Of a stretch of 64,000 nt of DNA, positions 37,823 to 56,470 are shown piece after piece; within the stretch, counting starts at the first letter, position 1, and every line of letters begins with the position of its first letter. This DNA is from Dehalococcoidia bacterium (lineage in GTDB: Bacteria > Chloroflexota > Dehalococcoidia > Plut-88900), in contig CBDBLV010000005.1 in the NCBI GenBank assembly GCA_965207225.1, forward strand, positions 1,888,001 to 1,952,000, in the 5' to 3' direction. The position numbers and the translations under genes are program-made. The notes below the pieces were generated by a model, which saw only the letters and a list, made by a program, of their open reading frames with translations, did not search any database and had not been told where the DNA came from.

Positions 37823-39478
37823 TCAGGATCGCCGGAGTGAAGTTGGATCACCCATCCACAATTCGAAAATGGTTCTGCCTATCGTCAACTCAGGCCCACC
37901 AGAGACTCCCATACTGCGAACTTTCCGTCCCAGGGCGACCTCGGCAAGGTCGGCCCCGCCTATGGGAGAGTCCTCCGGGGTGGGGATTGTGTAGTGGATC
38001 GTGGCCCTGCCGGGCCTAACCTCGATCTCGCTGACGAAGGACCGGATGAAGGCCCGTGACTCGGTGATCTCGCTCTCCCTGAGGAACTCGCTCATGTCCT
38101 GGGCGAAGGCGGTGATGGTCTCCACCTTGTCCAGCGTCACCCTTCGCTTCGACAGGACGGCTCTGGCCTCCTCAGCGGCGGCCTCCAGCTTCTCCTTGCG
38201 CTCCCGGAGCTCCTTGATGCGGTCCGTGGCGTCGGACATCTCGATCTCGGTGGTCTCGATGACCTGCCAGATGCGTCCCAGCCGACGCTTCACGTCCTCA
38301 AGCTCCTCGTCGATGACCTTCAGCCGCTTGCGGTGCTCCCGGGCCACACCGTCCATCTCTTCGTCCACCATCTTCACCAGGTCCCGGATGTTGGACTCGA
38401 TGAGGATGTTGTCCCGGATGTTCTCGACGATGAGGCCCTCGAAGCGCTTGGCGTTGAGCCTTGGGGTTTCGCAGGTTCCCCTGCCCTTCTTGAGCAGGGA
38501 ATGGCAGACGTAGTAGGTGTATTTGCCGCCCTTGGCCTCGGCGGCGGTGAGGGCCTTGCGGCACCGCCGGCACTTGACCAGCCCACTCAGCAGGTAGGGG
38601 CTGGAGGCCCGGCGGGGGTGGACGACCTTGGGGGCGCGGGACTTGAGCAGCCGTCTCACCTGCCGGTACTTGCTCTTGGAGACCAGGGCGGGGAACGCCT
38701 TCTCCACCCTGACTGGCTCGGCTTTGTCCTTGGACTTGGTTCCCCACACCAAGACGCCCGTGTAGGCTTCGTTGGTCAGCATGGTGTGGACGGCGCTCTT
38801 GAGCCACTGCTTGCCCCTGGGAGAGGGGACGCCCTCTGCGTTGAGGGTCTTCGTGATGTCCAGGGAGCTTTGGCCCTGGAGGGCCATGTCGAAGACGCGC
38901 TTGACCACGGCGTCGGCGGGCGGGTCGGGCTCCAGCCTGGGGCGCTTCTTGGCCCCGTCCTGGACGTAGACCTTGCGGTAGCCGTAGGGTGCGAAGGTGG
39001 CGACCCAGAAGCCACGTGAGGCCGCCTCCCGCATTCCACGGGAGACCTCCTCTGCAAGATTGGCGCTGTAGAACTCGTCCACGGACTCGATGATGGCCTC
39101 CATGAGCTTGCCGGTGGGGGAGTCGTCGGCGTGTTCGGTGATGGAGACGACGCGGATGCCCCGCCTCCTGAGCATGGACTTGAAGGCGACGGCGTGCTCC
39201 CGCTTGCGGGTGAATCTCGAAAACTTCCAGACCAAAATCTCCTGGAACGGGGCCTCGGGCTTGCCCGCCTCGTCCAGCATCTTCTGGAACTGGGGCCTGT
39301 CTGCGATGCGGCCGCTCTCGGCCTCGTCCACGTACTCCCTTGCGACGACGTAGCCGTTCTTCTGGGCGTAGTCCCTGAGCGCCCGCATCTGGGCGGCCAC
39401 GGACAGGTCCACGTCCTGCCGGTCGCTGGACACCCTGGCGTACAGGGCGACGGGTATCAGGTCAGTTCTCTCGTTCAT
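37823..39478 (-). CDS. Large serine recombinase (integrase 2); C-terminal tail encoded by the right end of island 1
   Basis: Close paralog of integrase 1 (YARVSS, RFTRKREH, Zn ribbon); SD GGAGG. Confidence 0.95.
   Translation of the reverse strand: MNERTDLIPVALYARVSSDRQDVDLSVAAQMRALRDYAQKNGYVVAREYVDEAESGRIADRPQFQKMLDEAGKPEAPFQEILVWKFSRFTRKREHAVAFKSMLRRRGIRVVSITEHADDSPTGKLMEAIIESVDEFYSANLAEEVSRGMREAASRGFWVATFAPYGYRKVYVQDGAKKRPRLEPDPPADAVVKRVFDMALQGQSSLDITKTLNAEGVPSPRGKQWLKSAVHTMLTNEAYTGVLVWGTKSKDKAEPVRVEKAFPALVSKSKYRQVRRLLKSRAPKVVHPRRASSPYLLSGLVKCRRCRKALTAAEAKGGKYTYYVCHSLLKKGRGTCETPRLNAKRFEGLIVENIRDNILIESNIRDLVKMVDEEMDGVAREHRKRLKVIDEELEDVKRRLGRIWQVIETTEIEMSDATDRIKELRERKEKLEAAAEEARAVLSKRRVTLDKVETITAFAQDMSEFLRESEITESRAFIRSFVSEIEVRPGRATIHYTIPTPEDSPIGGADLAEVALGRKVRSMGVSGGPELTIGRTIFELWMGDPTSLRRS
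37893..37901 (+). other. att core 2 (island 1 / island 2 junction)
   Basis: GGCCCACCA with GTTC at -21 and GAAC at +17..+20. Confidence 0.85.
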
Positions 39479-41892: not shown

Positions 41893-42408
41893 GGGAATTG
41901 CCCATGGGCAGCCCGCTTGTGCGGAAATGAGTGATACGTCAAGCCCATCGGGGCACCTGGGGCTGGCGAGTCCTGCGACGGGGTTCGGCGTCGAGGCAGG
42001 TCGCCGGGATTTGGTGCTCTGCAACGAATTGTACTTTCGGGAGCTGTTGGGGGCTGACACGGTAAGTAGTGGGAATGGCCTTTTGTCCCCTATAGGAAGT
42101 CCTGGGAACGGCTCGGTGGGACAAGTTGCGGCATGTTGCGCAGTCTTCGGCGTCCGTGTGTGGGACGCAGTGGCCGGGCGGCTGTAGGCAGGAATCGTAG
42201 CTGAGGGATGATGGTGACGGGGGGTGTGATGCAGCGGGGAAGACGGCCTGACCGGTCGGTTCTGCAACGGATTGTACTGTGGTGGGCGGTAGCGGAGATG
42301 CGCGACCGGTCACGTGGGCAAGTTGTCCCAGCAAGGCTGCTGGGACAGCCCCTATTGGAAGGGTTCGGAACGGAAAGGGCGGTCATTGCGCAGGCTGATA
42401 CGTCAGGG
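41893..42408. other. Conserved non-coding backbone segment (second copy)
   Basis: Homologous to 27050-27876; hairpin at 42322-42349. Confidence 0.85.
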
Positions 42409-44425
42409 CGAGGGGCCTTCTGTGGAGGGAATACGGCGGGGGCAGTATCCACGAGTCGCCCAGGACGCCATGCTCGGCAAGGGTCTCGGTGTTGCTGGTG
42501 ACGATGGGCACGTCGTCCTCTGCGTCGGCGATGTCGAGGAAGGCGGTCTCGCTGTCGGGGGACTCGAAGACGAAGAGCACGTGGGGCAGGTGTCCCTCGT
42601 GGTCTCTCTTTGCCCAGCCGCTGGTGAAATAACGTCGGTAGGACCTCAGGCGTTTGGGGATGCGTTTCGGCGTGGTGGCCCTCCGCTCGAACTCCAGCAG
42701 GTAGGGACGCCACTCGCCCTTGTACTCCAGGGTGAAGGAGGCGTCGGGGTGGATGGCGTAGGCGGTCTGGTCGTGGCGGTATCCGATGCTGGAGCGGTGG
42801 GTGGGAAGCAGGTCGAACAGGTCGTGGTCCGGGGAGTTGGCGACCTCGGCTGAGAGGGCGGAAGCGAAGCCGACGACGCCGGCGTGGTGGCGCAGCTGGG
42901 CGGCCAGGGCGCGCAGGGCTGTCCCGACGTAGACGGAGGGCTTCCTGAGGGTGAGTTCTGGGCTCCAGCGGTCGAGGGTGAGGCCGACGGCGGCCCGGTC
43001 CCGGCGGGCCAGGTGCGTCAGTCCCTCGTCGGTGAGCACGAGGAGGGAGCCGTCCTCCCGCACTAGGCCGTGCTCACGGAGGGCGCGGAGCACCTGGTTG
43101 ACCCGGCGCAGGGTGACGCCGCCCATGAGTCCCGCAAGCTGCTCACGGGTGCACAGGGGCCATGCCGACAGCAGGTCCAGGGCGTCCTTCCCGGCGCGGG
43201 TGAGTTGCGCCGATGGGGATGACGTGAGCTGCTCGCCAGGCTCCGGCATGGCGGCCTTCACACTGGAGGAGTAGAGGTCTTCGAGATCGGGCCTCGGGTT
43301 GTCGCGGAAGGACGAATGGGACGAGTCCAGCAGCCGATCCATCCACGCCAGGATGCTCCCCAGGGACGCGCCAGGGTCTATGAGCACCGGCGGGTCATTG
43401 TCCCGTCCGTCTCCGCACTGTTGCCAGACGGCTCCGGTGTGGTCTCCGGCCAGAAGCTCTCCTTCCGTCGCCGCAAAGGTCCTGCGGTGCTCCGACGGGT
43501 CGCCCAATGAGCGGATGGCCCTTCGGGTGGCCTGGTCAGCATGGGTCAGGACGAGCGTGGCGAACGGCCTCTCGCGGCTGGGGAGATGCTCGACGCTCCT
43601 GAGGCGGTAGCGCAGGTTGGAGGTGGGCAGGGTCGCACCCTGGCGGATGACGCCGATGGAGCGTCCACCGGACAGGGTGACCAGCATGTCGTAGGGGCCG
43701 CTGCGGTAGTGGTCCACGCGCACGGGCTTCTCCTGCGGGTCTGCGTCGGCGATCATGGCGGCGACGCGGTAGAGGACGGCCACGGCGTCCATGCGCTCGG
43801 CCAGCAGCCGGAACCATTGCCTGGACACGGGGTACTCGCTGAGGAAGTAGTCCGTGCCGTGCTCGATCCGCCCTCCGGCGACGATGCCCTGCTTCGTGGG
43901 GAAGTAACGGCGCTGGGGGCGGGAGCCGAGAACGCTCAACTGGTGCGACACGGAGTCCACCAGGCCCCGCTTTGCGAGGTTGCTCAGCCGGTCACGCAAC
44001 GTGGAGGCGGGGACACGTCCGAAGCGGGAGAGCTCGTCCACGGTGGCCAGGGGCGTGGCGCAGACCAGCCGCAGAGCGTCCTCCAGGGTCTCGGACAGGC
44101 GCTTGGGACCGGTCGCCGCTGGGCCGCTGTCCTTCAGCCGCCGCCTGGCCTGCGCTTGGAGTATCAGCCGCTCCTCGGCGTCCTCCACCGCCTCTGGTCT
44201 GTCGCCCACTTGCTCCAGCACCGCGCTGGGGATAGCGCGCCCGGCGTGGCCCCGGTCGAGGAAACGCCACAGGGTGTGGCGGGAGACGCCGAGGGTCTCG
44301 GCCGCCTTGGGCCTGCCATGCAGCACGGCGTAGGTGCGCACGTAGTCCCGGACCGCCCCGTCGAGGTCCGCTCCAGCCTGCGCTGCGCCGTTGACTCTTG
44401 CTTCTTGTGGGTTCGTGACTGCCAA
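42383..44425 (-). CDS. Replication-relaxation (Replic_Relax-like) protein with N-terminal HTH and two related halves
   Basis: HTH AAETLGVSRHTL; wHTH ..PL(A/C)T.(D/E).L.. twice; IHPDA..YLLEFER nuclease-like motif. Confidence 0.7.
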   Translation of the reverse strand: MAVTNPQEARVNGAAQAGADLDGAVRDYVRTYAVLHGRPKAAETLGVSRHTLWRFLDRGHAGRAIPSAVLEQVGDRPEAVEDAEERLILQAQARRRLKDSGPAATGPKRLSETLEDALRLVCATPLATVDELSRFGRVPASTLRDRLSNLAKRGLVDSVSHQLSVLGSRPQRRYFPTKQGIVAGGRIEHGTDYFLSEYPVSRQWFRLLAERMDAVAVLYRVAAMIADADPQEKPVRVDHYRSGPYDMLVTLSGGRSIGVIRQGATLPTSNLRYRLRSVEHLPSRERPFATLVLTHADQATRRAIRSLGDPSEHRRTFAATEGELLAGDHTGAVWQQCGDGRDNDPPVLIDPGASLGSILAWMDRLLDSSHSSFRDNPRPDLEDLYSSSVKAAMPEPGEQLTSSPSAQLTRAGKDALDLLSAWPLCTREQLAGLMGGVTLRRVNQVLRALREHGLVREDGSLLVLTDEGLTHLARRDRAAVGLTLDRWSPELTLRKPSVYVGTALRALAAQLRHHAGVVGFASALSAEVANSPDHDLFDLLPTHRSSIGYRHDQTAYAIHPDASFTLEYKGEWRPYLLEFERRATTPKRIPKRLRSYRRYFTSGWAKRDHEGHLPHVLFVFESPDSETAFLDIADAEDDVPIVTSNTETLAEHGVLGDSWILPPPYSLHRRPLALTYQPAQ

Positions 44426-46161: not shown

Positions 46162-46512
46162 ATGCCTTTGGGCGACCTGATCAATAGGGGCCGGATAGCC
46201 AAGCAACTCGGTCTACGAGCTCTAGCTAGACAGATTGGCATTGCCCCATCCTACTTGGCTGATATCGAGAATGACCGTAGGGTTCCTTCAGAGGGAGTGC
46301 TCCGCAGTATTTCGGAGACACTTGATCTGGACTTCGACGGATTGATGCAACAGGCAGGACGATTGGGGGAAGGAGTTGAGTATTACCTCCGCCAAGAGAA
46401 GCTAGCAGGTCAGCTTTTCCGCAAAGTGGCCGAAACTAACCTTGACCGAGAGGGTCTCCAGAAGCTCTTGGACAGGCTTGAGCAACTGGGGCCTCCAGAG
46501 GATGAGCAATGA
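46162..46512 (+). CDS. XRE-family HTH regulator (CapH-like)
   Basis: LGLRALARQIGIAPSYLADIENDRRVPS. Confidence 0.9.
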   Translation: MPLGDLINRGRIAKQLGLRALARQIGIAPSYLADIENDRRVPSEGVLRSISETLDLDFDGLMQQAGRLGEGVEYYLRQEKLAGQLFRKVAETNLDREGLQKLLDRLEQLGPPEDEQ

Positions 46513-47252
46513 AGGATTACCGAAGCCCAAATGGAGAGCGGCGGCTCTGGTTTGAAGAGAGCGAGATTGAGGAGATCATGACACATGAGCTTCAACAGTG
46601 TGAGATGTTCCCAAGCGCTGCTATTCCTCTGGTGGATGTGGAAGCCTTCTTGGAGTTGCATCTTCAAGTTAGGCTTGACCTATATTGCGAACTACGTCCT
46701 GGTTTGCTGGGAGTCAGCACATTCATCGCCGGGCAGCAGCCCGTGGTTGAAATCAATCGGGACCTCACAGAGCAAGCGAACGAGAATGCCAGCCCAACTG
46801 GGCTTCTAGGGAGGTGGCGGGCCACGTTGGCACATGAGGCCGCCCACGTGATCCTGCATAGACAACTCGTCGAGCGACCACAGGGACAAGGGACACTGTT
46901 CTCTCAAGGGGTGGAATCGAAGGTGGAGACGACTACGACGAGATGCCTAGAACGTCACATCTGGTTTGCCCGGGGCACGGGCGACTGGAAAGAAGTACAG
47001 GCCAATCTGGGAATGGCAGCCTTGCTAATGCCAAGCGGTCCATTCACCGACCTAGCGAGACTCATTGTGGGAGCCAGACCAGCAAACGATCTTCTAGCCT
47101 ATATTCCAGCAAGAGACACGCAAGCGTACGCTGGTCTGATCCGAGAGTTGTCTAGACGATGCCAAGTCTCTCAAGAAGCCGCCGGTATTCGTCTGAGCAC
47201 TCTGGGATTGACTCGTTCTTCGAGTGAACCAATGTTGGGGTTGGCACCATAG
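46509..47252 (+). CDS. ImmA/IrrE-family Zn metallopeptidase (CapP-like)
   Basis: RWRATLAHEAAHVILH, EVQAN..MAALLMP; ATGA overlap with the HTH gene. Confidence 0.9.
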   Translation: MKDYRSPNGERRLWFEESEIEEIMTHELQQCEMFPSAAIPLVDVEAFLELHLQVRLDLYCELRPGLLGVSTFIAGQQPVVEINRDLTEQANENASPTGLLGRWRATLAHEAAHVILHRQLVERPQGQGTLFSQGVESKVETTTTRCLERHIWFARGTGDWKEVQANLGMAALLMPSGPFTDLARLIVGARPANDLLAYIPARDTQAYAGLIRELSRRCQVSQEAAGIRLSTLGLTRSSSEPMLGLAP

Positions 47253-47349: not shown

Positions 47350-47592
47350 ATGACAACAGGAAGGTACGAATTCAAAGTCAACGGGGTTGAGTTCAGGACG
47401 GACACTCCTGAGCTGACTGCATCCCAGATTCTGGCGATTGCCATTGAGGGCAAAGCGGTTCCTAATCCTAAAGGAGCAGACACATACATTCTGCGCGGTG
47501 ACAAGGGTGAGTACCAGGGAGGTACCCGGATTGACCTAACGGTCGACAACGTGTTCATAACCGTGCCGACAGGACCCACGCCTGTGGCATGA
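47350..47592 (+). CDS. Ubiquitin-like beta-grasp protein (multi-ubiquitin type)
   Basis: YEFKVNG....LTASQIL...IDL...FITVP pattern; 80 aa; precedes E2/E1 genes. Confidence 0.65.
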   Translation: MTTGRYEFKVNGVEFRTDTPELTASQILAIAIEGKAVPNPKGADTYILRGDKGEYQGGTRIDLTVDNVFITVPTGPTPVA

Positions 47593-47605: not shown

Positions 47606-47983
47606 TTGGCACCCAACGACATAAGTCGGGTCCAGTCAGAACTGGAGGAGTTAGGATACGCTCCTACACTACACAATTGGAAGCATGGTGTCGTTGTCGA
47701 ATTCGACTACACCGTCGAGGTTGGCACTCACACGGGACAGATGTTTAGGCTCGGTATGAGCTTTCAAGAGCAGGGCTATTCGGAATACCCTCCTCACTGG
47801 ATACACGTGAGCCCTCCTGTGGATGATGGCCTGGGTGGTGTACAGGAGCGATACCAAACTGCGGATGGTCGGGAGTGGATTGCCTTAAGCAGACCCCCCA
47901 GCGATATATGGGACAATCTGCCGGTCAAGAACATGAGGCACTACCTTGACGAGCATATACGGCGATTCTGGAGTCGGATGTGA
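47606..47983 (+). CDS. Prokaryotic E2-like protein lacking cysteine
   Basis: Y..YPPHWIH, W..LSRP motifs; position between the Ubl and E1 genes. Confidence 0.6.
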   Translation: MAPNDISRVQSELEELGYAPTLHNWKHGVVVEFDYTVEVGTHTGQMFRLGMSFQEQGYSEYPPHWIHVSPPVDDGLGGVQERYQTADGREWIALSRPPSDIWDNLPVKNMRHYLDEHIRRFWSRM

Positions 47984-49446
47984 TCTTTGACGTTGCTATG
48001 CTCGCTGAAGTTGATGGAGTGGCGATAGGTCACTTGCTTCAGCATTACAGGCACGGCGAGGGCCAAGAAGACTTGTGCTTCGCTTTGTGGCGACCATCGA
48101 TAGGGAGCAGTAAGTACTCCGGGATCATCTACCGGGTCATCCTGCCTCAGCATGAAGACCGTGAATTGCACGGCAACGCCAGCTTCCAGCCTGCATACCT
48201 CACTCGGGCTCTTGATATGGCACGACAAGAGAAGGCAGGGTTGGCATTTATGCACAGCCATCCCAGTCAGGGATGGCAGGGAATGAGTGGATCTGATGTG
48301 AGAGCCGAACGAGATGTTCTTGCGTATCCGGCTGGCGCTACTGGACTTCCACTGCTTGGCCTCACTGTCGGTACCGACGGCTACTGGAGCGCTCGATTCT
48401 GGGAGCGGGCCGAGGGAGAGATGATGAGGCGGGAATGTGAGAGGGTCAGAGTTGTAGGAGCCGATTCTTATCGAGTGTACTTCGACAACAGAATTTTCCC
48501 GCCACCTGATCGAAGTGAAGTTCTCAAGCGCACCATCGACACTTGGGGAGAAGAGGCCCAACAGAACATCGCACGCCTGAAGGTAGGGATTGTTGGTTTG
48601 GGAAGCGTGGGATGTATCGTCGCTGAAGGCCTTGCCAGAATCGGCATATCAAGTTTCACACTGATCGACCATGATCTAGTAGAAGAACACAATCTCGACC
48701 GGCTACTATACTCTACGGAACGTGATATCGGGACACATAAGGTTGATTTAGCGAACCGGAAGATACGACGACACGCTACAGCCAAGGACGTCCAAGTAAT
48801 TGCCTTGCCAATGTCGATTCGAGAGCGAACCGCCTACAAGGCAGCCATTGACTGCGATCTACTATTCAGTTGCGTTGACCGTCCAGTCGGGCGAGATGTG
48901 CTCAACTATATTGCTTATACCCATTTGATTCCGGTTATAGATGGGGGCGTGGATGCTGGTCCTCTCAACAGCCATCTTCTCCTAACACACTGGCGGGCTC
49001 ACTTGGTAGGTCCGGGTAATCAGTGCATGCGCTGCATCGGTCAATACAGCACGAGTGATGTCTCAATGGAGTTGGACGGATCACTTGATGACCCTTCTTA
49101 CATTACTGCTTTACCAGCCGAAGTTCGGATGAACAACCAGAATGTATTCCCTTTCAGTCTTGGAGTAGCAAGCATGCAACTGAACTTGATGCTCAGGTAT
49201 ATCCTAGCCCAAGACTGGTGGCCCGCCATCAAGCAACAGGACTATCGATTTGTTACACAAGATATTGGTTTCCCGACCGGAAGTTGCCGCCCAAATTGCG
49301 AGTTTCCTTCACGGGTTGCTTTGGGAGACTCAATTGCTCCATTCTACTTGGTGGAAAAGACAAAGACTCACAGATACTCCCCGAAGTCAATTCTGTATAC
49401 ATGCCTTAGCCGGGTAAGAGCGTTTCTGAGAGGTAGGCGCAACTGA
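47980..49446 (+). CDS. JAB/MPN-like domain fused to ThiF/E1 adenylation domain
   Basis: E..HSHP-x7-SGSD; GLGSVG, D.D.VEEHNLDR, CVD, CMRC...CRPNC. Confidence 0.88.
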   Translation: MIFDVAMLAEVDGVAIGHLLQHYRHGEGQEDLCFALWRPSIGSSKYSGIIYRVILPQHEDRELHGNASFQPAYLTRALDMARQEKAGLAFMHSHPSQGWQGMSGSDVRAERDVLAYPAGATGLPLLGLTVGTDGYWSARFWERAEGEMMRRECERVRVVGADSYRVYFDNRIFPPPDRSEVLKRTIDTWGEEAQQNIARLKVGIVGLGSVGCIVAEGLARIGISSFTLIDHDLVEEHNLDRLLYSTERDIGTHKVDLANRKIRRHATAKDVQVIALPMSIRERTAYKAAIDCDLLFSCVDRPVGRDVLNYIAYTHLIPVIDGGVDAGPLNSHLLLTHWRAHLVGPGNQCMRCIGQYSTSDVSMELDGSLDDPSYITALPAEVRMNNQNVFPFSLGVASMQLNLMLRYILAQDWWPAIKQQDYRFVTQDIGFPTGSCRPNCEFPSRVALGDSIAPFYLVEKTKTHRYSPKSILYTCLSRVRAFLRGRRN

Positions 49447-49506
49447 TAGTGCATACCTATTCCAGTACACTAAGGGCCGGTGGTAGAATACCCTGAGGAG
49501 TATACC

Positions 49507-52257
49507 ATGCCTCCACGTAGGAGATCACCACAATCCAAGCGTCCCATTGAGTCCTATGACCACCGGGACAAGGAAAGACTGAACAACCCACCCGTCGGAC
49601 TAGTCACGCCGGAGACTGACCGGGACGCGGGACGGAAGACCTACGCCTACGACCCCCATCTGGACCCGCAGCTCCAGTGGGCGGGAAAGGCGGAGCATAC
49701 CTCCTTTCAGGTTCCCACGGTCTCTCTCCATGTACACGAGCGCATCGACCCCCGCACCATCATTGAGGCTACCCGCAGGCGCAACGGCAACGGCGCTCCG
49801 GTACAGGGCAGTCTCTTTGAGCTGCCGGAGGAGAACCCCCCGGTCCGCAACGCCATCGAGTTCTACCAGCACCGTCACAACTGGACCAACCGCCTCGTAG
49901 CTGGCGATAGCCTATTGGTGATGAACAGCCTGCTGGGGAAGGAGGGCATGGCCGGCAAAGTGCAGATGGTCTACATCGACCCTCCTTATGGAATCCGGTA
50001 TGGCTCTAACTTCCAGCCTTTCGTGAACCGTCGAGACGTGAAGGATGGCAAGGATGAGGACCTGACCCAGGAGCCGGAAACCATTAAGGCCTTCCGCGAC
50101 ACCTGGGAACTAGGCATCCACTCCTATCTGTCCTATCTACGGGACCGTCTGCTGCTAGCGCGGGAGATGCTAAGTGAGACAGGTAGCGTTTTCGTGCAGA
50201 TTTCCGACGAGAACGTCCATCTGGTTCGAGAACTCATGGATGAGATTCTTGGCCCCGAACAGTTCATGTCTCTTATATCGTTCAGGACAAAGATCCCACT
50301 GAACGCAGCCTTCTTGCCCAATATAGCAGATTTCTTGATTTGGTATGCCAAAGACAAGGATAAGGTAAAGTTCCGACGGTTGTTCACAACTCGTAATTTC
50401 GGTGAGGAAACACAATTCTCTAACGCACAGCTGGAGGATGGCGCTGTAACAAAGGCATCTGAAGTGCCCGAATCTGAAATCGAGTCTACTCGCTACTTCA
50501 CCCTCATTGATCTCATGGCAACCGGTTATACCGAATCATGCCACTTTGAGTTTTTCCTAGAAGGAAGGAGAGCGTACCCCAACCCTACTACAAGCTGGAA
50601 GACTACACCTGAAGGAATGCAGCGACTGATTGCCGCCAACAGGGTCCGATGGCAAAGGACTGTGCCAAGATATGTCTTTTTCGCAGACGACTACCCTGTC
50701 ATGCAAATCACCAACCAATGGACAGATACGCAGGGGGCAGTTGGCAAAACATTCGCCGTCCAAACCTCCTCAAAGGTCATTGAGCGTTGTCTCCTGATGA
50801 CTACCGACCCTGGCGACTTGGTGTTCGACCCTACCTGCGGCTCCGGCACCACCGCCCATGTCGCCGAGCAATGGGGCCGTCGCTGGATCACGTGCGATAC
50901 ATCCCGTGTGGCGATAGCTCTTGCCAAGCAGCGATTGGTGACCGCCCTTTACGACTACTATGAGTTGGCCCATCCAAGCGAGGGAGTGGGTAGCGGCTTC
51001 AACTACAAGACTGTCCCCCACATCACTTTGGGTTCCATCGCTAACAACCCCGACATCAAAGAGGGCATGACCCAAGAGGACATCGACAAGGCCATCGCCC
51101 GCCACGCTCCCCAGGAGACACTGTACGACCAGCCTTTGGTGGACACGGGCAAAAGGCGGGTGACCGGTCCCTTCAGTGTCGAGGCTGTCCCCGCACCGGC
51201 GGTCAAGCCCATCGACGACATTGACGTTGCCGAGCCGCTGCCCGCCGATGACACGGTGGCCCGCTCTGGCGAAACACTGCGCCAGTCAGACTGGCGGGAG
51301 GAGCTGCTAAAGACGGGCATCCGTGGTAAGGCAGGGCAGTTCATTCGCTTCGCCAGGTTGGAGCCTTTGCCGGACCATCGCCATCTACACGCCGATGGCG
51401 AGTCGTTGCCCAACGCCGACGGCGCCCAGAGCATTCGGGAAGGCCCAGCGCGGGCATCACAGCGTGTTGTCGTATCTTTCGGACCTGAGCACGCGCCGTT
51501 GGAGCCGCGTCAGGTGAACCAAGCCTTGCAGGAAGCCGAAACCCTAAGGCCGAGTCCTCGTATCATCGTCTTCGCTGCCTTCCAGTTCGACCCCGAAGCA
51601 GCGAAAGACATCGACGAAACCAACTGGCCCGGCATGACCCTGCTGAAGGCGCAAATGAATGCTGACCTACTCACTGAGGATCTGAAGCGCAAGCGAGCGA
51701 GCAATGAGAGCTTCTGGCTCATCGGCCAGCCGGATGTGCAGGTTGAGGCCATCGCTAATGGTAAAGACGCGGGAAAGCGCCGCGTTAGTGTCCAGGGGTT
51801 CGATTACTACAACACCAAGAGCGGCGATGTGGAGTCGGGTGGACAGGACAAGATAGCGATGTGGATGCTAGACACGGACTACGACGGTCGCAGCCTTTAT
51901 CCTCGGCAAGTGTTCTTTCCCATGTCTGGCAGCAACGATGGATGGACTCGCCTGGTCAGGAACCTCAAAGCGGAGATAGACGAGGAGCTAATCGAGGCTT
52001 ATCGGGGCACCCTATCTCTGCCCTTCGAGCCGGGAGAGAATCGGCGGATAGCGGTCAAGATCATCGACGACCGGGGTATCGAGAGCCTGAAGGTGATTGG
52101 GTTGGACGCCGAACCTAAAGTAACGAAGTCCAGTAGAACTCTGGAGGATATTTTCGTAGCGCGCTTCAATGACATCCCTCAAGAGGAATGGGATCGGCTG
52201 CCGCACGACTTGATTGACAACCTGGATCACTACACCGCTGGCGCGGATCGTCGATGA
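49507..52257 (+). CDS. mod: Type III R-M methyltransferase (Mod) with a 49-aa antitoxin-like C-terminal extension
   Basis: YIDPPY, FDPTCGSGTT, usual end IAVKIIDDRGIESLKVI, then extra tail; SD GAGGAG before ATG 49507. Confidence 0.92.
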   Translation: MPPRRRSPQSKRPIESYDHRDKERLNNPPVGLVTPETDRDAGRKTYAYDPHLDPQLQWAGKAEHTSFQVPTVSLHVHERIDPRTIIEATRRRNGNGAPVQGSLFELPEENPPVRNAIEFYQHRHNWTNRLVAGDSLLVMNSLLGKEGMAGKVQMVYIDPPYGIRYGSNFQPFVNRRDVKDGKDEDLTQEPETIKAFRDTWELGIHSYLSYLRDRLLLAREMLSETGSVFVQISDENVHLVRELMDEILGPEQFMSLISFRTKIPLNAAFLPNIADFLIWYAKDKDKVKFRRLFTTRNFGEETQFSNAQLEDGAVTKASEVPESEIESTRYFTLIDLMATGYTESCHFEFFLEGRRAYPNPTTSWKTTPEGMQRLIAANRVRWQRTVPRYVFFADDYPVMQITNQWTDTQGAVGKTFAVQTSSKVIERCLLMTTDPGDLVFDPTCGSGTTAHVAEQWGRRWITCDTSRVAIALAKQRLVTALYDYYELAHPSEGVGSGFNYKTVPHITLGSIANNPDIKEGMTQEDIDKAIARHAPQETLYDQPLVDTGKRRVTGPFSVEAVPAPAVKPIDDIDVAEPLPADDTVARSGETLRQSDWREELLKTGIRGKAGQFIRFARLEPLPDHRHLHADGESLPNADGAQSIREGPARASQRVVVSFGPEHAPLEPRQVNQALQEAETLRPSPRIIVFAAFQFDPEAAKDIDETNWPGMTLLKAQMNADLLTEDLKRKRASNESFWLIGQPDVQVEAIANGKDAGKRRVSVQGFDYYNTKSGDVESGGQDKIAMWMLDTDYDGRSLYPRQVFFPMSGSNDGWTRLVRNLKAEIDEELIEAYRGTLSLPFEPGENRRIAVKIIDDRGIESLKVIGLDAEPKVTKSSRTLEDIFVARFNDIPQEEWDRLPHDLIDNLDHYTAGADRR

Positions 52258-52673
52258 CTGAAATCTTCGTGGACACCGCATATCTCATAGCCCTAGCCAG
52301 GCGTCACGACCAATGGCACGACACGGCGCTCGCCGCTCGGAATAGACTTGGTGAAGTACCCTTGGTGACGACAGACGAGGTGCTCACTGAGTTCTTGACT
52401 GCGATGTCGAACGCCGGTCCGGGGTTGCGAGGGGACGCCGCGGGTACGGTCAGAGAGATCCTGGAGGCCGGCGCAATTAGAATTGTAGCTCAGACACGCC
52501 AGTCCTTCCTTGAAGGGCTCGACAGATACGAGAAGCGTCTCGATAAAGACTATAGCCTTCAGGACTGCATCTCTATGAATGTGATGGAGGCAGAGGGAAT
52601 TACCGAGATTCTCACCAGCGACCACAACTTCGAGCAGGAAGGCTTTACCATCCTGATGAAGCAGGACAGGTAG
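52254..52673 (+). CDS. vapC: PIN-domain (VapC-like) toxin
   Basis: FVDT, VLTE, SLQDCIS, TSDHNF acidic quartet; ATGA overlap with mod. Confidence 0.88.
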   Translation: MTEIFVDTAYLIALARRHDQWHDTALAARNRLGEVPLVTTDEVLTEFLTAMSNAGPGLRGDAAGTVREILEAGAIRIVAQTRQSFLEGLDRYEKRLDKDYSLQDCISMNVMEAEGITEILTSDHNFEQEGFTILMKQDR

Positions 52674-52681
52674 GGGCCGCG

Positions 52682-55486
52682 ATGGAACAGTCAACGATAG
52701 ACCGGCTCATCATCAACAAGCCGTATGAGGAGCCGAAGGAGTACTGGAACTACAATCGGGAGACACGTAAGTTCTGTCGGAAACCTGGCCGCCGTCCTGC
52801 GGGCTACCTGATAGCGTCTGGGGACTCCAAGACTTTCGACGATCCAGGTGTCTTCGTCGAAATCCCTCTGGTCAACCAGATACGGCCGCGGGTAAAGGAT
52901 TGGAGTGACGCCGGGTATCCTGGCGTCACCGCCATCACCAAGCGCCTGTTGGAGCACTGGACAGACCCGGAAGAATTCGAGAGCCGTCGATTCTTCTTCT
53001 GTCAGATCGAAGCTGCCGAGACGCTCATCTGGCTCGCCGAAGCCCCAGACAGCGAGAAGGTAGGCATCGACATCCCTGGCGACGGTGGAGAGTTCTGGCG
53101 CCTATGCGCCAAGATGGCCACCGGGACGGGCAAGACCGTTGTAATGGCGATGCTCATTGCTTGGCACATCTTGAACAAGGTCTCATATCCCCAGGACACC
53201 CGGTTCGCCAAGAACGTGCTGGTGGTTGCCCCTGGACTCACCATCAGGAGCCGTCTTGCGGTCCTGGAACCATCCCACGAGGACAACTACTACGAGGCTT
53301 TCCGTGTTGTACCTTCATCCCTACTGGACCGGCTCCGCCAAGGGAAGGTCATTGTCCGAAACTGGCACGCCCTCAACTGGGAGACCGAGGATCAGATTAG
53401 GAGAAAGCGGAGCGTGGACAAGCGCGGGGCAAAGAGTGACGAAGCCTACGTTCGCGATGTGCTGGGCGACATGGCCGGAGCACGAAACCTGCTAGTCATC
53501 AACGATGAGGCGCACCATGCCTGGAGAGTGCCCGCCGAGTCCAAGGTGAAGGGCGTTGCCAAGGCGGACATCGAGGAGGCGACCAAGTGGGTTGGCGGCC
53601 TGGACCGGATTCATCGAGCGCGGGGCATCCTCACTTGCTTTGACTTCTCGGCCACACCCTTTGCTCCTTCCGGCAAGAGGAGTTCCGAAGAAGCGCTGTT
53701 CGACTGGATAGTAAGTGACTTTGGACTGAACGACGCCATCGAGTCCGGGTTGGTCAAGACGCCGAGGGTCGTGATTCGGGACGACACACCGGTTGATGCC
53801 AAGACCTACAGGTCGCGCCTCTACCACATCTACAACGACCCGGAGGTGAAGGACGATCTGAATCGCCGTGCCCAGCCCCACGAACCGTTGCCCGACTTAG
53901 TGACCAATGGATACTATCTGCTTGGCTATGACTGGAGAGAGGCCGCCAGAGAGTGGCAAGAAGCCAAGCTCAAGACACCACCGGTAATGATCACCGTCGC
54001 CAACCGCACTGAGACCGCAGCCAGAGTCAAACACGCCTTTGACCGCAAGCGAGTCCTTATAGACGAGCTCTGTGACCCGGACCGTACGTTGCACATCGAC
54101 TCCGGCGTTCTGAAGAGAGCCGAAGAGTCCGAGGAACCGATAGCCGAGATCATGCCGGACGATGAGGATGAATCTGACAACGGTGCTGTCAGTCCCAAGC
54201 TCACTAGAGACCAGATGGCCGAGCAGTTGCGAAAGATGGTGGACACCGTGGGACGGCCCGGGCAGCCCGGTGAGCGGGTACAGAACGTCATTTCAGTGGG
54301 AATGCTCTCCGAGGGCTGGGACGCCAAGACCGTGACACACATCATGGGTCTGAGGGCCTTCACCAGCCAACTGTTGTGCGAGCAGGTGGTCGGGCGAGGT
54401 CTCAGGCGCACGTCTTACGATGTGAATCCAGAGACAGAGATGTTTGACCCTGAGTACGTCAACATTTTCGGTGTGCCGTTCACCTTCCTTCCCCACGAAG
54501 GGGGCGAGAGTGGGCCTCCGAAGCCTCCCTCACCCAAGACGGCTATTGAGCCAGTACCGGAAAAGGCCCCGTTCGAGATCAAGTGGCCCAACATCATCCG
54601 CATTGAGCATGTCTATCGCCCCAGACTGACCTTGGATTGGAATCAGGTAGAACGTTTGGAGCTCAATGCCAGTGAAACGGCGCAAGTGGCCGAGCTTGCC
54701 CCGGTAGTGGATGGCAAGCCCGACGTGTCCAAGCTGACCAGCATCGACCTAGAGGCGTTGGCCCACGAGTACCGGACTCAGAAGATAATTTTCGAGACCG
54801 CACGGGACGTGTTTGACCTGATGAAGCCGTCCTGGGCAGGGAGCCGTGAGTCGCTCATCGCCCAGTTGGTGAAGCTGGTAGAGCAGTTCCTTCTATCGGG
54901 CAGCCTGGGTATTACTCCTCCCCTCTTCTATCAGGACGACATGCGCCGTCGCCTTATGATCACATTAAACATGACGAAGGTGGTGCAGCACGTATGGGAT
55001 GCTGTCCGCGTCGAGAACACGGAACGACTTGAGCCGGTGTTCGACCGCGACCACCCAATACGCTCTACTGCGAACATGGCAACCTGGTACACAGGCAAGC
55101 CGTGCAACCTAACGGACCGCAGCCATATCAACATGTGCGTCTACGACAGCACTTGGGAAGCCTCGGAAGCTTTTGAGTTGGATTACAACCGTCTAGTGAA
55201 TGCCTGGGTCAAGAACGACCACCTGGGCTTCGAGGTGCTCTACGTCTACCGTGGTGTGGTGCGGAAGTACCGACCGGATTTCATCATTCGCCTGAGATCA
55301 GGAAACACGCTGATCCTGGAGACCAAGGGGCAACCAGATGAGCAAAGCTACTCAAAGCACCGCGCTCTGGAGCAATGGATTGAGGCCGTCAACCAGCACG
55401 GCGGATTCGGCCGCTGGTCAGCAGATGTTTCTTATAGCCCAGGGGACATCAAGGACATCTTGGCGAAGCACGGTGCTGTCGAATGA
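52682..55486 (+). CDS. res: Type III restriction enzyme Res subunit (SF2 helicase + PD-(D/E)XK)
   Basis: MATGTGKT, NDEAHH, SATP, LSEGWD, QVVGRGLR, YRPDF..LETKG. Confidence 0.92.
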   Translation: MEQSTIDRLIINKPYEEPKEYWNYNRETRKFCRKPGRRPAGYLIASGDSKTFDDPGVFVEIPLVNQIRPRVKDWSDAGYPGVTAITKRLLEHWTDPEEFESRRFFFCQIEAAETLIWLAEAPDSEKVGIDIPGDGGEFWRLCAKMATGTGKTVVMAMLIAWHILNKVSYPQDTRFAKNVLVVAPGLTIRSRLAVLEPSHEDNYYEAFRVVPSSLLDRLRQGKVIVRNWHALNWETEDQIRRKRSVDKRGAKSDEAYVRDVLGDMAGARNLLVINDEAHHAWRVPAESKVKGVAKADIEEATKWVGGLDRIHRARGILTCFDFSATPFAPSGKRSSEEALFDWIVSDFGLNDAIESGLVKTPRVVIRDDTPVDAKTYRSRLYHIYNDPEVKDDLNRRAQPHEPLPDLVTNGYYLLGYDWREAAREWQEAKLKTPPVMITVANRTETAARVKHAFDRKRVLIDELCDPDRTLHIDSGVLKRAEESEEPIAEIMPDDEDESDNGAVSPKLTRDQMAEQLRKMVDTVGRPGQPGERVQNVISVGMLSEGWDAKTVTHIMGLRAFTSQLLCEQVVGRGLRRTSYDVNPETEMFDPEYVNIFGVPFTFLPHEGGESGPPKPPSPKTAIEPVPEKAPFEIKWPNIIRIEHVYRPRLTLDWNQVERLELNASETAQVAELAPVVDGKPDVSKLTSIDLEALAHEYRTQKIIFETARDVFDLMKPSWAGSRESLIAQLVKLVEQFLLSGSLGITPPLFYQDDMRRRLMITLNMTKVVQHVWDAVRVENTERLEPVFDRDHPIRSTANMATWYTGKPCNLTDRSHINMCVYDSTWEASEAFELDYNRLVNAWVKNDHLGFEVLYVYRGVVRKYRPDFIIRLRSGNTLILETKGQPDEQSYSKHRALEQWIEAVNQHGGFGRWSADVSYSPGDIKDILAKHGAVE

Positions 55487-56181
55487 TCTGGGCACCCAAT
55501 GTGGAGAATGCATCAGAAGTCGTTAAGGCAGCGTTGGCCGATATTGAGGCCGACGAAAGGCAACTGATCGCCAGTTCAGGTGAGATGTTCAAAGCCGACG
55601 GTGGTGCAGTTTATGGATTTGACCTCTTAGCGAATGCTGCCATAAATCGCGCCTTGGCCCTGTCTTCAGGCTTCAGGACATTGATCCTTGAACGGAATCT
55701 CGTTTGTGCAGGATCCCTAGTCCGGCTGCAACTGGATACCTCGCTCCGCCTATACGCCGGCTTCATTGTAGAGAAGCCACATGATTTCGCTATCAAAGTA
55801 TTCGCGGGTAAGAACATCAGAAGGTTGAAAGACAAAGATGGCAACTCCATGACTGATCGGTACCTGGTTGAGAAACTGGCGAAGCAATATCCTTGGATCG
55901 AATCAGTTTACGAACGGGCGTCAGACTACGTGCACCTGTCTGGTACCCATATCCTAAGTTCCGTGGAACTCATCGACAAACAGTCAGATGTTATAGGCTT
56001 GAAGGCTAGCTTCCTCGACAAGCCACTTTCAGACGACATCTATATTGATGCCATAAATGCATTCAGGCAATGCACACGCATCGTTGCTGACCATATTGAA
56101 GGTTGGATATGGACCAAGAATAATCCGGAAAAGATTGCCTCATTAACGGAGATGCGAGAACGGGAAAGTCATGGCATCTAG
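55483..56181 (+). CDS. Hypothetical protein, possible HEPN/DUF5677-like
   Basis: LVRLQLD...YERASDYVH motif; ATGA overlap with res. Confidence 0.6.
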   Translation: MIWAPNVENASEVVKAALADIEADERQLIASSGEMFKADGGAVYGFDLLANAAINRALALSSGFRTLILERNLVCAGSLVRLQLDTSLRLYAGFIVEKPHDFAIKVFAGKNIRRLKDKDGNSMTDRYLVEKLAKQYPWIESVYERASDYVHLSGTHILSSVELIDKQSDVIGLKASFLDKPLSDDIYIDAINAFRQCTRIVADHIEGWIWTKNNPEKIASLTEMRERESHGI

Positions 56182-56336
56182 TTGGAGGCTCAACTTCTTC
56201 GCAATGGTTCTTGAACCGAGGTCGCATCCCTGCATACGTATGCATCCCCAACTCAACCATCGACGCTCGGCTCACAGGTTGCAAGGCCGGATGAATGCCT
56301 AGTTCTGTATGACTTCGCCGTCTGCTTAGGGGATGA

Positions 56337-56390
56337 CTAGATTGGGACTTCCCATCGAAAAGTTCGCAGTTTAGTAGGCTTTGGCCCACC
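56337..56390 (-). other. Detached 3' end of integrase 2 (GGPKPTKLRTFRWEVPI-stop)
   Basis: Becomes in frame with integrase 2 when island 2 is circularised at the core. Confidence 0.75.
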
Positions 56391-56391
56391 A
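56383..56391 (+). other. att core 3 (right end of island 2)
   Basis: GGCCCACCA with GTTC at -21 and GAAC at +17..+20. Confidence 0.85.
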
Positions 56392-56408
56392 GACTTGATA
56401 AAATCAAG

Positions 56409-56445: not shown

Positions 56446-56470
56446 AGGCCCAGGAGTTGGAGGTGGTCAG

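What the first reader, a model, noticed from the sequence alone, without database searches (positions are those of the whole stretch)
52090..52682. Type III Mod methyltransferase fused to an antitoxin-like tail, with a PIN toxin between mod and res
Seen: Mod continues past its usual end (..DDRGIESLKVIGLD) for 49 in-frame residues ending IPQEEWDRLPHDLIDNLDHYTAG, and its stop overlaps (ATGA) a PIN gene; res starts 8 bp after the PIN gene. From recall, small genes upstream of this PIN subfamily end in a similar P.EEW..LP.D...N.DHY..G motif. No separate antitoxin gene is present, though AGGTGA-N5-TTG (52091-52104) could give an internal in-frame start. Inference: the MTase is itself the antitoxin, so loss, degradation or phage inhibition of Mod would release an RNase. 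This would be an R-M guard or addiction module logically similar to PrrC but of different architecture.
Basis: partly seen in the sequence, partly recalled or inferred. Interest (0 to 1): 0.78.

Follow-up and report, generated by a model that had tools for sequence, protein, structure and literature searches.

The report
Restriction methylase carrying a built-in antitoxin
A DNA methylase of a restriction system ends in a short peptide that normally belongs to a separate antitoxin, and the matching RNase-type toxin gene sits right behind it, so the methylase itself most likely keeps the toxin switched off.

Summary
Mod (49480..52257) runs 49 residues past the family's usual end (..VIGLD). Its stop overlaps the ATG of a 139-aa PIN gene (ATGA, 52254-52257), and res starts 8 nt after PIN.

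The fusion is not an artefact. A contig of an independent metagenome covers 51617-53000 with no indel. Of the 120 best Mod homologues, 106 carry one or two such tails.

The tail is homologous to the C-terminal roughly 40 residues of free antitoxins of the same PIN subfamily (hhalign 98.3%, E 2.4e-14). Those antitoxins include AF2212-type ones in this genome.

Among 79 species-level loci with a readable Mod end, 6 of 6 tailed Mods have the PIN. Only 1 of 73 tail-less Mods has it, and that one has a free antitoxin.

A complex model places the tail over the PIN catalytic residues (ipSAE 0.77, best control 0.00).

The internal-start idea is not supported.

Verdict: a VapBC-like toxin-antitoxin cassette whose antitoxin is fused to a Type III-like methyltransferase. 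Binding and neutralisation are well supported. The trigger (addiction or policing versus a phage-sensing guard) is inferred. I found no description of it in the papers searched. Interest is high.

The parts
49480..52107 (+). Core of the Mod methyltransferase, up to the family's usual C-terminus ..DDRGIESLKVIGLD. The likely true start is the ATG at 49507.
   Evidence: PF01555 at residues 161-483, E 1e-31. PADLOC MTase_III, E 2e-150. Tail-less homologues stop 6-8 residues after DDRGIES.
52108..52134 (+). Linker (AEPKVTKSS) between the Mod core and the antitoxin-like motif. It varies in length and sequence among homologues.
   Evidence: C-termini of 120 homologues. The stretch after DDRGIES is 54-104 residues in singly tailed forms.
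52135..52254 (+). Antitoxin-like tail RTLEDIFVARFNDIPQEEWDRLPHDLIDNLDHYTAGADRR, the predicted PIN-binding peptide.
   Evidence: Aligns with the C-termini of free antitoxins, with P, P, D, Y and G invariant. hhalign 98.3%, E 2.4e-14. Predicted contacts lie at tail residues 876-913 of the 916-aa form.
52254..52257 (+). ATGA overlap of the Mod stop and the PIN start, suggesting translational coupling.
   Evidence: Sequence. The PIN ORF abuts or overlaps the Mod stop in the tailed loci L013, L014, L017, L018 and L188-L192.
52254..52673 (+). VapC-like PIN-domain gene (139 aa), the putative toxin.
   Evidence: PF01850, E 7e-9. The nearest solved relative by sequence is VapC20, E 4e-9. D7, E46, D104 and D123 are invariant in 70 homologues.
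52682..55486 (+). Res subunit: helicase plus endonuclease, BPTD_3080 family.
   Evidence: NF046055 at 1131 bits (cut-off 800). PF04851 ResIII, E 5e-9.
52091..52104 (+). It is probably a remnant of the Shine-Dalgarno sequence that serves the gene after mod in tail-less relatives.
   Evidence: The codon is CTG, CTG, CTG, TTA, TTG, ACA, CTG, CTG and ATG in 9 other tailed loci. AAGGTGA also occurs in the tail-less L024, just before its stop and the next ATG.

Best explanation
This is a Type III-like restriction-modification operon (mod-res, BPTD_3080-family Res) with a VapBC-type toxin-antitoxin cassette built into it.

The toxin is a VapC-like PIN nuclease encoded between mod and res. Its antitoxin is not a separate protein. 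It is a peptide of about 40 residues, joined by a short variable linker to the C-terminus of the Mod methyltransferase.

The peptide is the portable toxin-binding module of a large family of antitoxins. In that family it is attached to many different N-terminal parts. Here it lies over the PIN active site and keeps the nuclease off.

PIN translation is coupled to Mod translation through the ATGA overlap. The toxin is therefore never made without an equal amount of tethered antitoxin.

Inferred consequences:
- Anything that removes full-length Mod frees a stable PIN, and growth stops. This includes loss of the cassette, a nonsense or frameshift mutation anywhere in the 2.6-kb mod gene, proteolysis of the tail, or shut-off of host synthesis during infection.
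- Type III Res is inactive without Mod (established knowledge, recalled). Such systems are therefore not self-addictive, and the fusion supplies that missing addiction or policing.
- The fusion may also act as an abortive-infection back-up.

What is shown: the anatomy, the homology, the co-occurrence, the co-variation and the predicted interface. What is inferred: toxicity, neutralisation in vivo and the trigger.
For: 1. Homology. Free antitoxins upstream of paralogous PINs in the same genome end in the same motif and overlap the PIN start. These have an AF2212-like N-terminus (PF01954, E 5e-12 to 2e-8). A profile of 15 free antitoxins matches the Mod alignment only at the tail: hhalign 98.3%, E 2.4e-14, 67 columns.

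2. Co-occurrence. The query lacked the tail and returned 80 species-level loci. 6 of 6 tailed Mods have the PIN overlapping or abutting the mod stop, with res 421-433 nt further on. 1 of 73 tail-less Mods has this PIN, and there a free 111-aa protein with the same tail precedes it. One locus was unreadable. Three further tailed loci (L189, L190, L192) also have the PIN. 0 of 51 readable metagenome loci have either tail or PIN.

3. Conservation. 106 of the 120 best homologues carry a tail. P899, D901, D907 and Y909 are invariant in 59 tailed Mods.

4. Co-variation. Tail and PIN similarity correlate at rho 0.68, against 0.37 for the adjacent Mod core and PIN. The partial Mantel value is 0.65, and 0 of 2000 permutations reached it.

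5. Complex model. The median ipSAE is 0.77 (runs 0.71, 0.80, 0.77) and the best of 3 controls is 0.00. The runs share at least 91% of contacts and the partner pLDDT is at least 70. The mark was reached by 58 of 80 solved complexes and by 2 of 110 mismatched pairs. PIN contacts include residues 6, 8-9, 46, 101-104 and 122-123, at or next to the invariant acidic residues D7, E46, D104 and D123.

6. The fusion is real DNA. An independent study's contig shows no indel.

7. The tail is a portable module. The tail profile has 3236 representative proteins at E <= 0.001. They include 44-57-aa minimal forms and fusions to AF2212-like, TPR and MarR parts.
Against: - No experiment shows that the PIN is toxic, that the tail neutralises it, or what releases it.
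- The complex score is a model's confidence. VapBC complexes are solved, so the pass may partly reflect likeness to them.
- The contig-length matching of Mod and PIN proteins is indirect. On megabase contigs it does not prove adjacency.
- Related loci are not independent, so the co-occurrence and Mantel figures overstate significance.
- A covalently tethered, presumably stable antitoxin does not fit the classic picture of a labile antitoxin. The PIN could instead be a permanently bound subunit.
- 17-18 of 120 homologues carry two tandem tails of different types. For six of them only one PIN was found on the same contig among the 120 listed. One tail per PIN is therefore not a strict rule.
- I could not fetch DNA of any double-tail locus.
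- RNA evidence was not obtained. Run X10 held only fragments of relatives.
Confidence: 0.75

Rival explanations
1. Phage-sensing guard of the R-M system. The PIN is held latent on Mod. A phage anti-restriction protein, or phage-induced degradation of Mod, releases or unmasks it. The RNase then aborts the infection, as PrrC does for EcoprrI. This extends the best explanation rather than excluding it. The difference lies in what the trigger is.
For: - The toxin gene is embedded in the R-M operon and its inhibitor is physically part of Mod.
- In relatives the same mod-res junction carries other typical abortive-infection or effector genes: the CAP12/Pycsar-type TIR domain (PF10137), MNT plus HepT, AAA_15/21 ATPases with a 175-aa partner, and M78 peptidase plus DUF4411.
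- The locus lies in a defence island next to a ubiquitin-like E1/E2/JAB system with capH/capP-like regulators.
- A 2025 review lists PrrC and PARIS as R-M guardians (PMC12707154, passages read).
Against: - Nothing here bears on a phage trigger.
- No relatives of the PIN were found in viral contigs, and tail mimics were not searched for there.
- The tail-PIN contact is the ordinary antitoxin-toxin contact and needs no sensing by Mod.
Confidence: 0.3
2. The antitoxin is made separately, by internal initiation at the in-frame TTG (52102) behind AGGTGA. The fusion is then only apparent at the protein level.
For: AGGTGA-N5-TTG is present and in frame in the window. Free-standing tail-only genes exist at this very position in relatives: L079 (62 aa) and L019 (111 aa). 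Minimal 44-57-aa forms exist elsewhere.
Against: - In 9 other tailed loci the codon is CTG, CTG, CTG, TTA, TTG, ACA, CTG, CTG and ATG. It is a start codon in only 2 of 9.
- AAGGTGA encodes the conserved K-V-I. It also occurs in tail-less Mods, where it precedes the next gene's ATG.
- The open frame through the junction is kept in 106 of 120 homologues.
Confidence: 0.08
3. The PIN is a constitutive extra nuclease subunit recruited to the Mod-Res complex by the tail. It would be an RNA or ssDNA nuclease working with restriction, not a toxin to be released.
For: The tether is covalent and stoichiometry is coupled through the ATGA overlap. PIN sits between the two R-M genes in all 10 tailed loci seen as DNA. 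Matelska et al. 2017 noted PIN genes coupled to Type I R-M units, sometimes without antitoxins (PMC5499597, passages read).
Against: The tail is homologous to antitoxin tails of ordinary two-gene TA pairs. The model puts it on the catalytic acidic residues, which would block the site rather than present it.
Confidence: 0.1
4. Artefact or decay: a lost stop codon or an assembly error fused a dying antitoxin gene to mod, without function.
For: 4 of 120 homologues have non-motif extensions that look like frameshifted tails (P0081, P0086, P0105, P0106). The locus is present twice at 100% identity in an assembly rated 8.3% contaminated.
Against: An independent contig shows no indel. The fusion is conserved in 106 of 120 homologues with invariant motif residues. 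The PIN catalytic residues are invariant.
Confidence: 0.02

Closest known systems
VapBC-type (PIN) type II toxin-antitoxin pairs, specifically the COG2880/DUF104 (AF2212-like)-PIN pairs predicted by Makarova et al. 2009 (PMC2701414, passages read)
   Same: - A PIN toxin with four conserved acidic residues.
- The antitoxin coding sequence lies directly upstream and overlaps the toxin start.
- The same C-terminal toxin-binding motif.
- Paralogous pairs of this kind lie in the same genome.
   Different: The antitoxin's N-terminal AF2212-like (AbrB-related) DNA-binding part is replaced by an approximately 870-residue DNA methyltransferase. There is no separate antitoxin gene, and the cassette sits inside an R-M operon.
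PrrC anticodon nuclease within the EcoprrI Type IC R-M locus (R-M 'guardian'; review PMC12707154, passages read)
   Same: An RNase-type suicide effector is encoded inside an R-M gene cluster and is presumably kept silent by the R-M proteins.
   Different: - PrrC is an ABC-ATPase-like anticodon nuclease held by non-covalent association with a Type I enzyme and activated by T4 Stp.
- Here the effector is a small PIN protein. The silencing element is a recognisable antitoxin peptide fused covalently to a Type III-like Mod.
- No trigger is known.
PIN-like genes coupled to Type I R-M subunits (Matelska et al. [quoted passage not shown]
   Same: PIN genes lie in R-M operons, sometimes without a recognisable antitoxin. 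The authors suggested a different way of regulating the toxin.
   Different: Those cases involve Type I systems. No fusion of an antitoxin to an R-M subunit is described in the passages read, and they state that no direct TA-R-M interaction had been shown. The supplementary figure S7 was not seen.
Modular, promiscuous antitoxin domains in type II TA networks (for example Ernits et al. 2023, PMC10440598; search listing and abstract only)
   Same: One neutralising module is combined with many partners.
   Different: Here the module is a short C-terminal peptide, and one of its partners is a large enzyme of another defence system.

Membership tests
Type III(-like) restriction-modification system | Mod subunit: N6/N4 DNA methyltransferase | tested here: met
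   PF01555, E 1e-31, above its cut-off. PADLOC MTase_III, E 2e-150.
Type III(-like) restriction-modification system | Res subunit with an SF2 helicase/translocase and an endonuclease part, encoded next to mod | tested here: met
   NF046055 (BPTD_3080 family restriction endonuclease), 1131 bits against a cut-off of 800. PF04851 ResIII, E 5e-9. There is a weak TnsA-like endonuclease match at residues 800-909. mod and res abut in 27 of 80 related loci.
Type III(-like) restriction-modification system | ATP-dependent restriction that needs Mod for target recognition | not testable with these tools
   This is a biochemical property. It is assumed from knowledge of Type III enzymes (recalled).
VapBC-type type II toxin-antitoxin system | PIN-domain toxin with conserved acidic active-site residues | tested here: met
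   PF01850, E 7e-9, above its cut-off. D7, E46, D104 and D123 are invariant in 70 homologues. VapC20 is the nearest solved chain, E 4e-9. The NCBIfam VapC models match only below their cut-offs.
VapBC-type type II toxin-antitoxin system | Separate small antitoxin gene directly upstream, with an N-terminal DNA-binding domain | tested here: not met
   There is no separate ORF. The antitoxin-like sequence is the last 49 codons of mod. An internal start is not conserved.
VapBC-type type II toxin-antitoxin system | The antitoxin's C-terminal region binds the toxin and occludes its active site | tested here: inconclusive
   This is a prediction only. ipSAE is 0.77 with a best control of 0.00, and the contacts lie at the catalytic residues. 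There is no measurement.
VapBC-type type II toxin-antitoxin system | The toxin arrests growth and the antitoxin rescues it | not testable with these tools
   Needs expression experiments.
AF2212-like / COG2880 (DUF104) antitoxins | N-terminal AF2212-like domain (PF01954) | tested here: not met
   No Pfam or NCBIfam match for the tail at E <= 0.1. The free paralogues do match PF01954.
AF2212-like / COG2880 (DUF104) antitoxins | Shared C-terminal motif ..P..(E)W..LP.D...N..HY..G next to a PIN gene of this subfamily | tested here: met
   Alignments A4 and A6 have P, P, D, Y and G invariant. hhalign 98.3%.
PrrC-like R-M guardian | Suicide nuclease gene embedded in an R-M locus | tested here: met
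   PIN lies between mod and res.
PrrC-like R-M guardian | PrrC/RloC-type ATPase plus anticodon-nuclease domains | tested here: not met
   The only domain found is PIN, and there is no PADLOC match.
PrrC-like R-M guardian | Activation when a phage inhibits the R-M enzyme | not testable with these tools
   Needs phage experiments.

The most novel reading that the evidence does not exclude
The mod-res junction of this R-M family is a general docking site for second-line suicide effectors. In one lineage the effector's inhibitor has been welded to Mod. The R-M complex itself then becomes the sensor: disabling, degrading or mutating Mod unleashes a PIN RNase.

The tandem tails of different types would be stacked immunities against PINs of competing cassettes. 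Such tails occur twice on some Mods and up to four times in one 189-aa protein. If so, short portable antitoxin peptides are swapped and accumulated in an arms race among R-M-borne toxin cassettes.
Probability: 0.3. Interest if true: 0.9.

Novelty: new variant of a known kind. Interest (0 to 1): 0.78.

Why it matters
It would be the first described case, within the papers I could search, of an antitoxin covalently built into a subunit of another defence system. That gives a direct physical link between restriction-modification and toxin-antitoxin modules. A 2017 survey said such a link had not been shown (PMC5499597).

It offers a simple answer to how Type III-like systems, whose Res is harmless without Mod, can still be addictive and resist decay of mod.

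It is directly testable with a few constructs: full-length Mod, tail-less Mod and tail alone, each with the PIN.

It also defines a 40-residue portable PIN-neutralising peptide. The peptide has no Pfam or NCBIfam model yet has thousands of representative carriers. That would improve annotation of apparently orphan PIN toxins.

Tried and rejected
1. DNA context of double-tail Mods. None was found in 400 genomes of the phylum, the 11 other genomes of the order, 400 genomes of the class, two metagenome scans (one search found nothing; one search gave 80 loci without tails) or viral contigs (17 loci without tails). Whether two tails go with two PIN genes therefore stays open.

It found no window-like PIN (>= 80% identity) there. 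Only the best 120 of 822 PIN hits were listed, so a second and more distant PIN cannot be excluded.

2. PIN relatives in viral contigs: none.

3. RNA evidence. Run X10 (metatranscriptome) held only short pieces of relatives with 3-8 differences each. This is no evidence of expression either way.

4. Internal-start hypothesis: rejected as a general mechanism.

5. Promoter and terminator scan of 46000-56600. It found fewer sites than in shuffles and none informative on the + strand inside the operon. The one + strand terminator-like site, at 52129, lies inside the tail coding sequence and is weak (5 pairs).

6. The 232-aa ORF after res (55483..56181) has no family and no counterpart in any fetched locus. 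I do not treat it as part of the system.

7. Literature (library: CC-licensed PMC plus bioRxiv). Searches for an antitoxin fused to a methyltransferase, for PIN in Type III R-M, for BPTD_3080, for the motif HYLYG and for R-M guardians found no description of this fusion. Subscription papers and the supplements of PMC5499597 were not seen.

Full report
**Observation**

The + strand between 49480 and 55486 holds three tightly packed genes.
- Mod is 49480..52257, 925 aa from a GTG. The database form of 916 aa starts at the ATG 9 codons later.
- A 139-aa PIN gene is 52254..52673.
- Res is 52682..55486.

Mod matches PF01555 (E 1e-31) and PADLOC MTase_III (E 2e-150). PIN matches PF01850 (E 7e-9). 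Res matches NF046055, the 'BPTD_3080 family restriction endonuclease', at 1131 bits against a cut-off of 800.

After ..DDRGIESLKVIGLD the Mod frame runs on for 49 residues, ending ..IPQEEWDRLPHDLIDNLDHYTAGADRR. Its TGA overlaps the PIN ATG (ATGA, 52254-52257). Res starts 8 nt after the PIN stop. The AGGTGA-N5-TTG at 52091-52104 is present and in frame.

**Is the fusion real?**

Logan contigs of public runs were laid on 51600-53000.
- Run X1, possibly the source sample, has a 765-nt contig over 51807-52571 with no difference.
- X1 also has a second, diverged contig of the same span with 102 substitutions and no gap.
- Run X5 comes from another study. It has a 2210-nt contig over 51617-53000 with 8 substitutions and no gap.
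- No insertion or deletion is listed for X1 or X5 between 52000 and 52677.

The locus also occurs twice at 100% identity in the assembly. Contig C4 positions 1-10014 equal window 46428-56441. That may be an assembly duplicate and is not counted as support.

The fusion is also widespread. I searched the protein collection with Mod residues 640-925. Of the 120 best hits, 106 carry one or two antitoxin-like tails after the same ..DDRGIES.. anchor. By the script these are 89 with one motif and 17 with two. P0047 is a second-tail case that the pattern missed, so the true split is 88 and 18.
- 9 hits stop 6-8 residues after the anchor.
- 4 have extensions without the motif that look frameshifted.
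- 1 is cut within the motif.

This list is biased towards tails, because the query contained one.

**What the tail is**

The window's own genome holds paralogous PIN genes of 35-36% identity. Each is preceded by an 84-94-aa gene that overlaps the PIN start. Those genes have an N-terminal AF2212-like domain (PF01954, E 5e-12 to 2e-8). They end in ..P..W.DLPTDL..N.KHYLYG.PKEE.

The same arrangement was seen in other genomes of the class and phylum. The Mod tail aligns with the last 40 or so residues of these proteins, with two P, one D, one Y and one G invariant. A profile of 15 free antitoxins, compared with the alignment of 59 tailed Mods, matches only the tail: hhalign probability 98.3%, E 2.4e-14, 67 columns.

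Neither Pfam nor NCBIfam has a model that matches the tail at E <= 0.1.

A profile of 25 tails was searched against 1.84 billion representative proteins. It found 3236 at E <= 0.001 and 837 at E <= 1e-10. Among the best 150:
- most are small proteins with the motif at the C-terminus, down to 44-57 residues;
- some carry it behind TPR repeats (P0284, 465 aa), a MarR domain (P0399), an AF2212-like domain or unnamed parts of about 300 residues;
- several have two to four tandem copies, for example P0259 (189 aa, four copies).

The tail is thus a portable module. It is most simply read as the toxin-binding part of the antitoxin, here attached to a methyltransferase.

**Co-occurrence with the PIN gene**

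To avoid bias I searched species-representative genomes with Mod residues 640-876, that is, without the tail. This gave 80 loci.
- Six have a tailed Mod (L013, L014, L016, L017, L018, L020). All six have a PIN of 58-80% identity that overlaps or abuts the mod stop, with res 421-433 nt after mod.
- Of 73 tail-less loci, one (L019) has this PIN. There it is preceded by a free 111-aa protein ending in the same motif.
- One locus (L074) was unreadable.

L079 has a free 62-aa tail-only gene between mod and res and no PIN. Three more tailed loci from the class-level search (L189, L190, L192) also have the PIN. L188 and L191 repeat L014 and L018.

None of 51 metagenome loci with a readable Mod end has either tail or PIN. 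Nor do 17 viral-contig loci have a tail. None of the 11 other genomes of the window's order has the tail, which fits a mobile defence cassette.

**Cassette behaviour**

- Tail and PIN similarity correlate at rho 0.68.
- The 232 Mod residues just upstream correlate with PIN at 0.37.
- The partial Mantel value for tail-PIN given the core is 0.65, reached by 0 of 2000 permutations.

The six DNA loci show the same pattern. L013 is closest in the Mod core (88%) but distant in tail and PIN (64%). L017 is the reverse (81% core, 80% PIN). Tail and PIN therefore travel and diverge together, with a break point in the linker.

Two caveats apply. The pairs are related, so significance is overstated. Contig-length matching is also indirect.

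**Predicted contact**

PIN (alignment of 70 sequences) was folded with Mod residues 858-916 (alignment of 59).
- The scores were ipSAE 0.71, 0.80 and 0.77 (median 0.77), against 0.00 for the best of three controls.
- At least 91% of contacts were shared between runs, and the partner pLDDT was at least 70.
- The tool's mark was reached by 58 of 80 solved complexes and 2 of 110 mismatched pairs. These counts hold only roughly here, because my own alignments were used.

The PIN residues in contact include 6, 8-9, 46, 101-104 and 122-123. These are at or next to D7, E46, D104 and D123, which are invariant in 70 homologues. This supports binding over the active site. It does not prove it, and solved VapBC complexes may help the model. 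The nearest solved relative of the PIN by sequence is M. tuberculosis VapC20, named as a 23S rRNA endonuclease (E 4e-9).

**The internal start**

The in-frame TTG at 52102 is CTG, CTG, CTG, TTA, TTG, ACA, CTG, CTG and ATG in nine other tailed loci. AAGGTGA encodes the conserved K-V-I. It also occurs in tail-less Mods such as L024, where it lies just before the stop and the next gene's ATG. It is best read as the old ribosome-binding site for the gene after mod. A separate peptide in this one organism is not excluded, but it is not the conserved solution.

**Mechanism**

The following is shown or well supported:
- the anatomy;
- the homology of the tail to antitoxin C-termini;
- its near-perfect linkage and co-variation with the PIN;
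- an intact PIN active site;
- a predicted inhibitory contact.

The following is inferred:
- The PIN is a growth-arresting RNase kept off by the Mod-borne peptide.
- The ATGA overlap couples its synthesis to that of Mod.
- Loss of full-length Mod frees the PIN. Such loss could come from deletion, any frameshift or nonsense mutation in mod, proteolysis or shut-off of synthesis.

Type III Res needs Mod to act (recalled, established). A plain Type III system can therefore decay to r-m- without killing the cell. The fused antitoxin would close that route, acting as addiction and as policing of the mod reading frame.

The guard reading (a phage attack on Mod triggers the PIN) is compatible and attractive. 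In relatives the same junction carries other effector-type cargo:
- CAP12/Pycsar-type TIR proteins;
- MNT plus HepT pairs;
- AAA_15/21 ATPases with a 175-aa partner;
- M78 peptidase plus DUF4411;
- an AAA ATPase plus a subtilase.

No result here tests the guard reading.

A rival is that the PIN is a permanently tethered working subunit. The predicted occlusion of its active site speaks against this.

**Open point**

Seventeen or eighteen of the 120 homologues carry two tails of different types. I could not fetch their DNA.

That PIN's nearest singly tailed relative has a tail more like the second (terminal) tail (47-69% identity) than the first (39-64%).

P0003's first tail is 94% identical to the window's. 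Yet no window-like PIN (>= 80% identity) lies on its contig. The first tail may be an orphan or a stacked immunity, or a second PIN may lie below the listing limit.

**Comparison with what is known**

The system works like a VapBC pair, and specifically like the COG2880/DUF104-PIN pairs predicted in 2009 (PMC2701414, passages read). It fails one defining feature of that family: a separate antitoxin with a DNA-binding N-terminus.

It resembles PrrC in logic, as a nuclease embedded in an R-M locus, but shares no domain with it.

Matelska et al. 2017 reported PIN genes coupled to Type I R-M units, some without antitoxins. They stated that no direct TA-R-M interaction had been shown (PMC5499597, passages read). 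Their supplementary figure was not seen.

A 2025 review of R-M biology names PrrC and PARIS as guardians. It does not contain the word VapC (PMC12707154, passages read).

Six literature searches found no description of an antitoxin fused to a methyltransferase. The library lacks most subscription journals.

**Verdict**

The proposed trigger is untested.

I rate this a new variant of known kinds (a toxin-antitoxin module and an R-M-linked suicide effector), with an architecture that I did not find in print. It is of high interest because it is conserved, mechanistically suggestive and easy to test.

Noticed in passing
window 46162-49446 (+): Directly upstream of mod, in the same direction and tightly packed, lie five genes: a capH-like HTH gene (46162..46512); a capP-like M78 peptidase (46509..47252); an 80-aa weak multi-ubiquitin-like gene (47350..47592); a 125-aa gene without family (47606..47983); and a 488-aa ThiF/E1 protein (47980..49446). 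Together they look like a ubiquitin-like conjugation defence system with CapH/CapP-type regulators. A homologue of the M78 gene (55% identity) also lies upstream of mod in L014, without the ubiquitin-like genes.
   Followed up: partly
window 46428-56441 = G000:C4:1-10014: The whole stretch from within the capH-like gene to just past the ORF after res occurs a second time at 100% identity, at the start of contig C4. The assembly is rated 8.3% contaminated. I cannot tell a real duplication from an assembly duplicate.
   Followed up: partly
window 37823-46055: The region holds a serine recombinase (37823..39478, - strand) and a 680-aa protein with a replication-relaxation domain (42383..44425, - strand). 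Window 42018-46055 recurs at 91-92% identity at three other places in the genome (C5:133938, C3:90643, C4:692982), so it is a multi-copy mobile element next to the defence genes.
   Followed up: no
window about 56383-56441: A stretch of 33-63 bases at the right edge of the duplicated segment recurs at 86-100% identity at about ten places on four contigs. It may be a repeat element or an insertion site.
   Followed up: no
L013-L092, between mod and res: In this R-M family the mod-res junction is a cargo site. 27 of 80 loci have mod and res abutting. About 39 have inserts of 116-3900 nt. The inserts include CAP12/Pycsar-type TIR proteins (alone or with an AAA_15/21 ATPase and a 180-aa protein), MNT plus HepT pairs, an AAA_15 ATPase with a 175-aa protein, HTH-M78 peptidase plus DUF4411, an AAA ATPase plus an S8 protease, DUF4258 and an IS66 transposase.
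   Followed up: partly
L079:6720-6908 (+): A free 62-aa gene consisting only of the antitoxin tail lies between mod and res with no PIN gene beside it. It is an orphan antitoxin at exactly the position of the fusion.
   Followed up: no
P0259 (189 aa), P0260, P0262 and others: Some proteins consist of two to four tandem antitoxin tails of different sequence types. The tail also occurs behind TPR repeats (P0284, P0332, P0293) and a MarR domain (P0399).
   Followed up: partly
L003:867-1917 (G000:C1): Two AF2212-type antitoxin genes in tandem (94 aa and 84 aa) precede a single paralogous PIN gene. Another paralogous pair is present in four identical copies in the genome (L004-L007).
   Followed up: no
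window 55483-56181 (+): A 232-aa ORF overlaps the res stop. It has no Pfam or PADLOC match and no counterpart in any fetched locus.
   Followed up: partly
P0081, P0086, P0105, P0106: Four Mod homologues have C-terminal extensions of 30-47 residues that start like a linker or tail but lack the motif, as if the tail were frameshifted. This could be decay or sequencing error.
   Followed up: no
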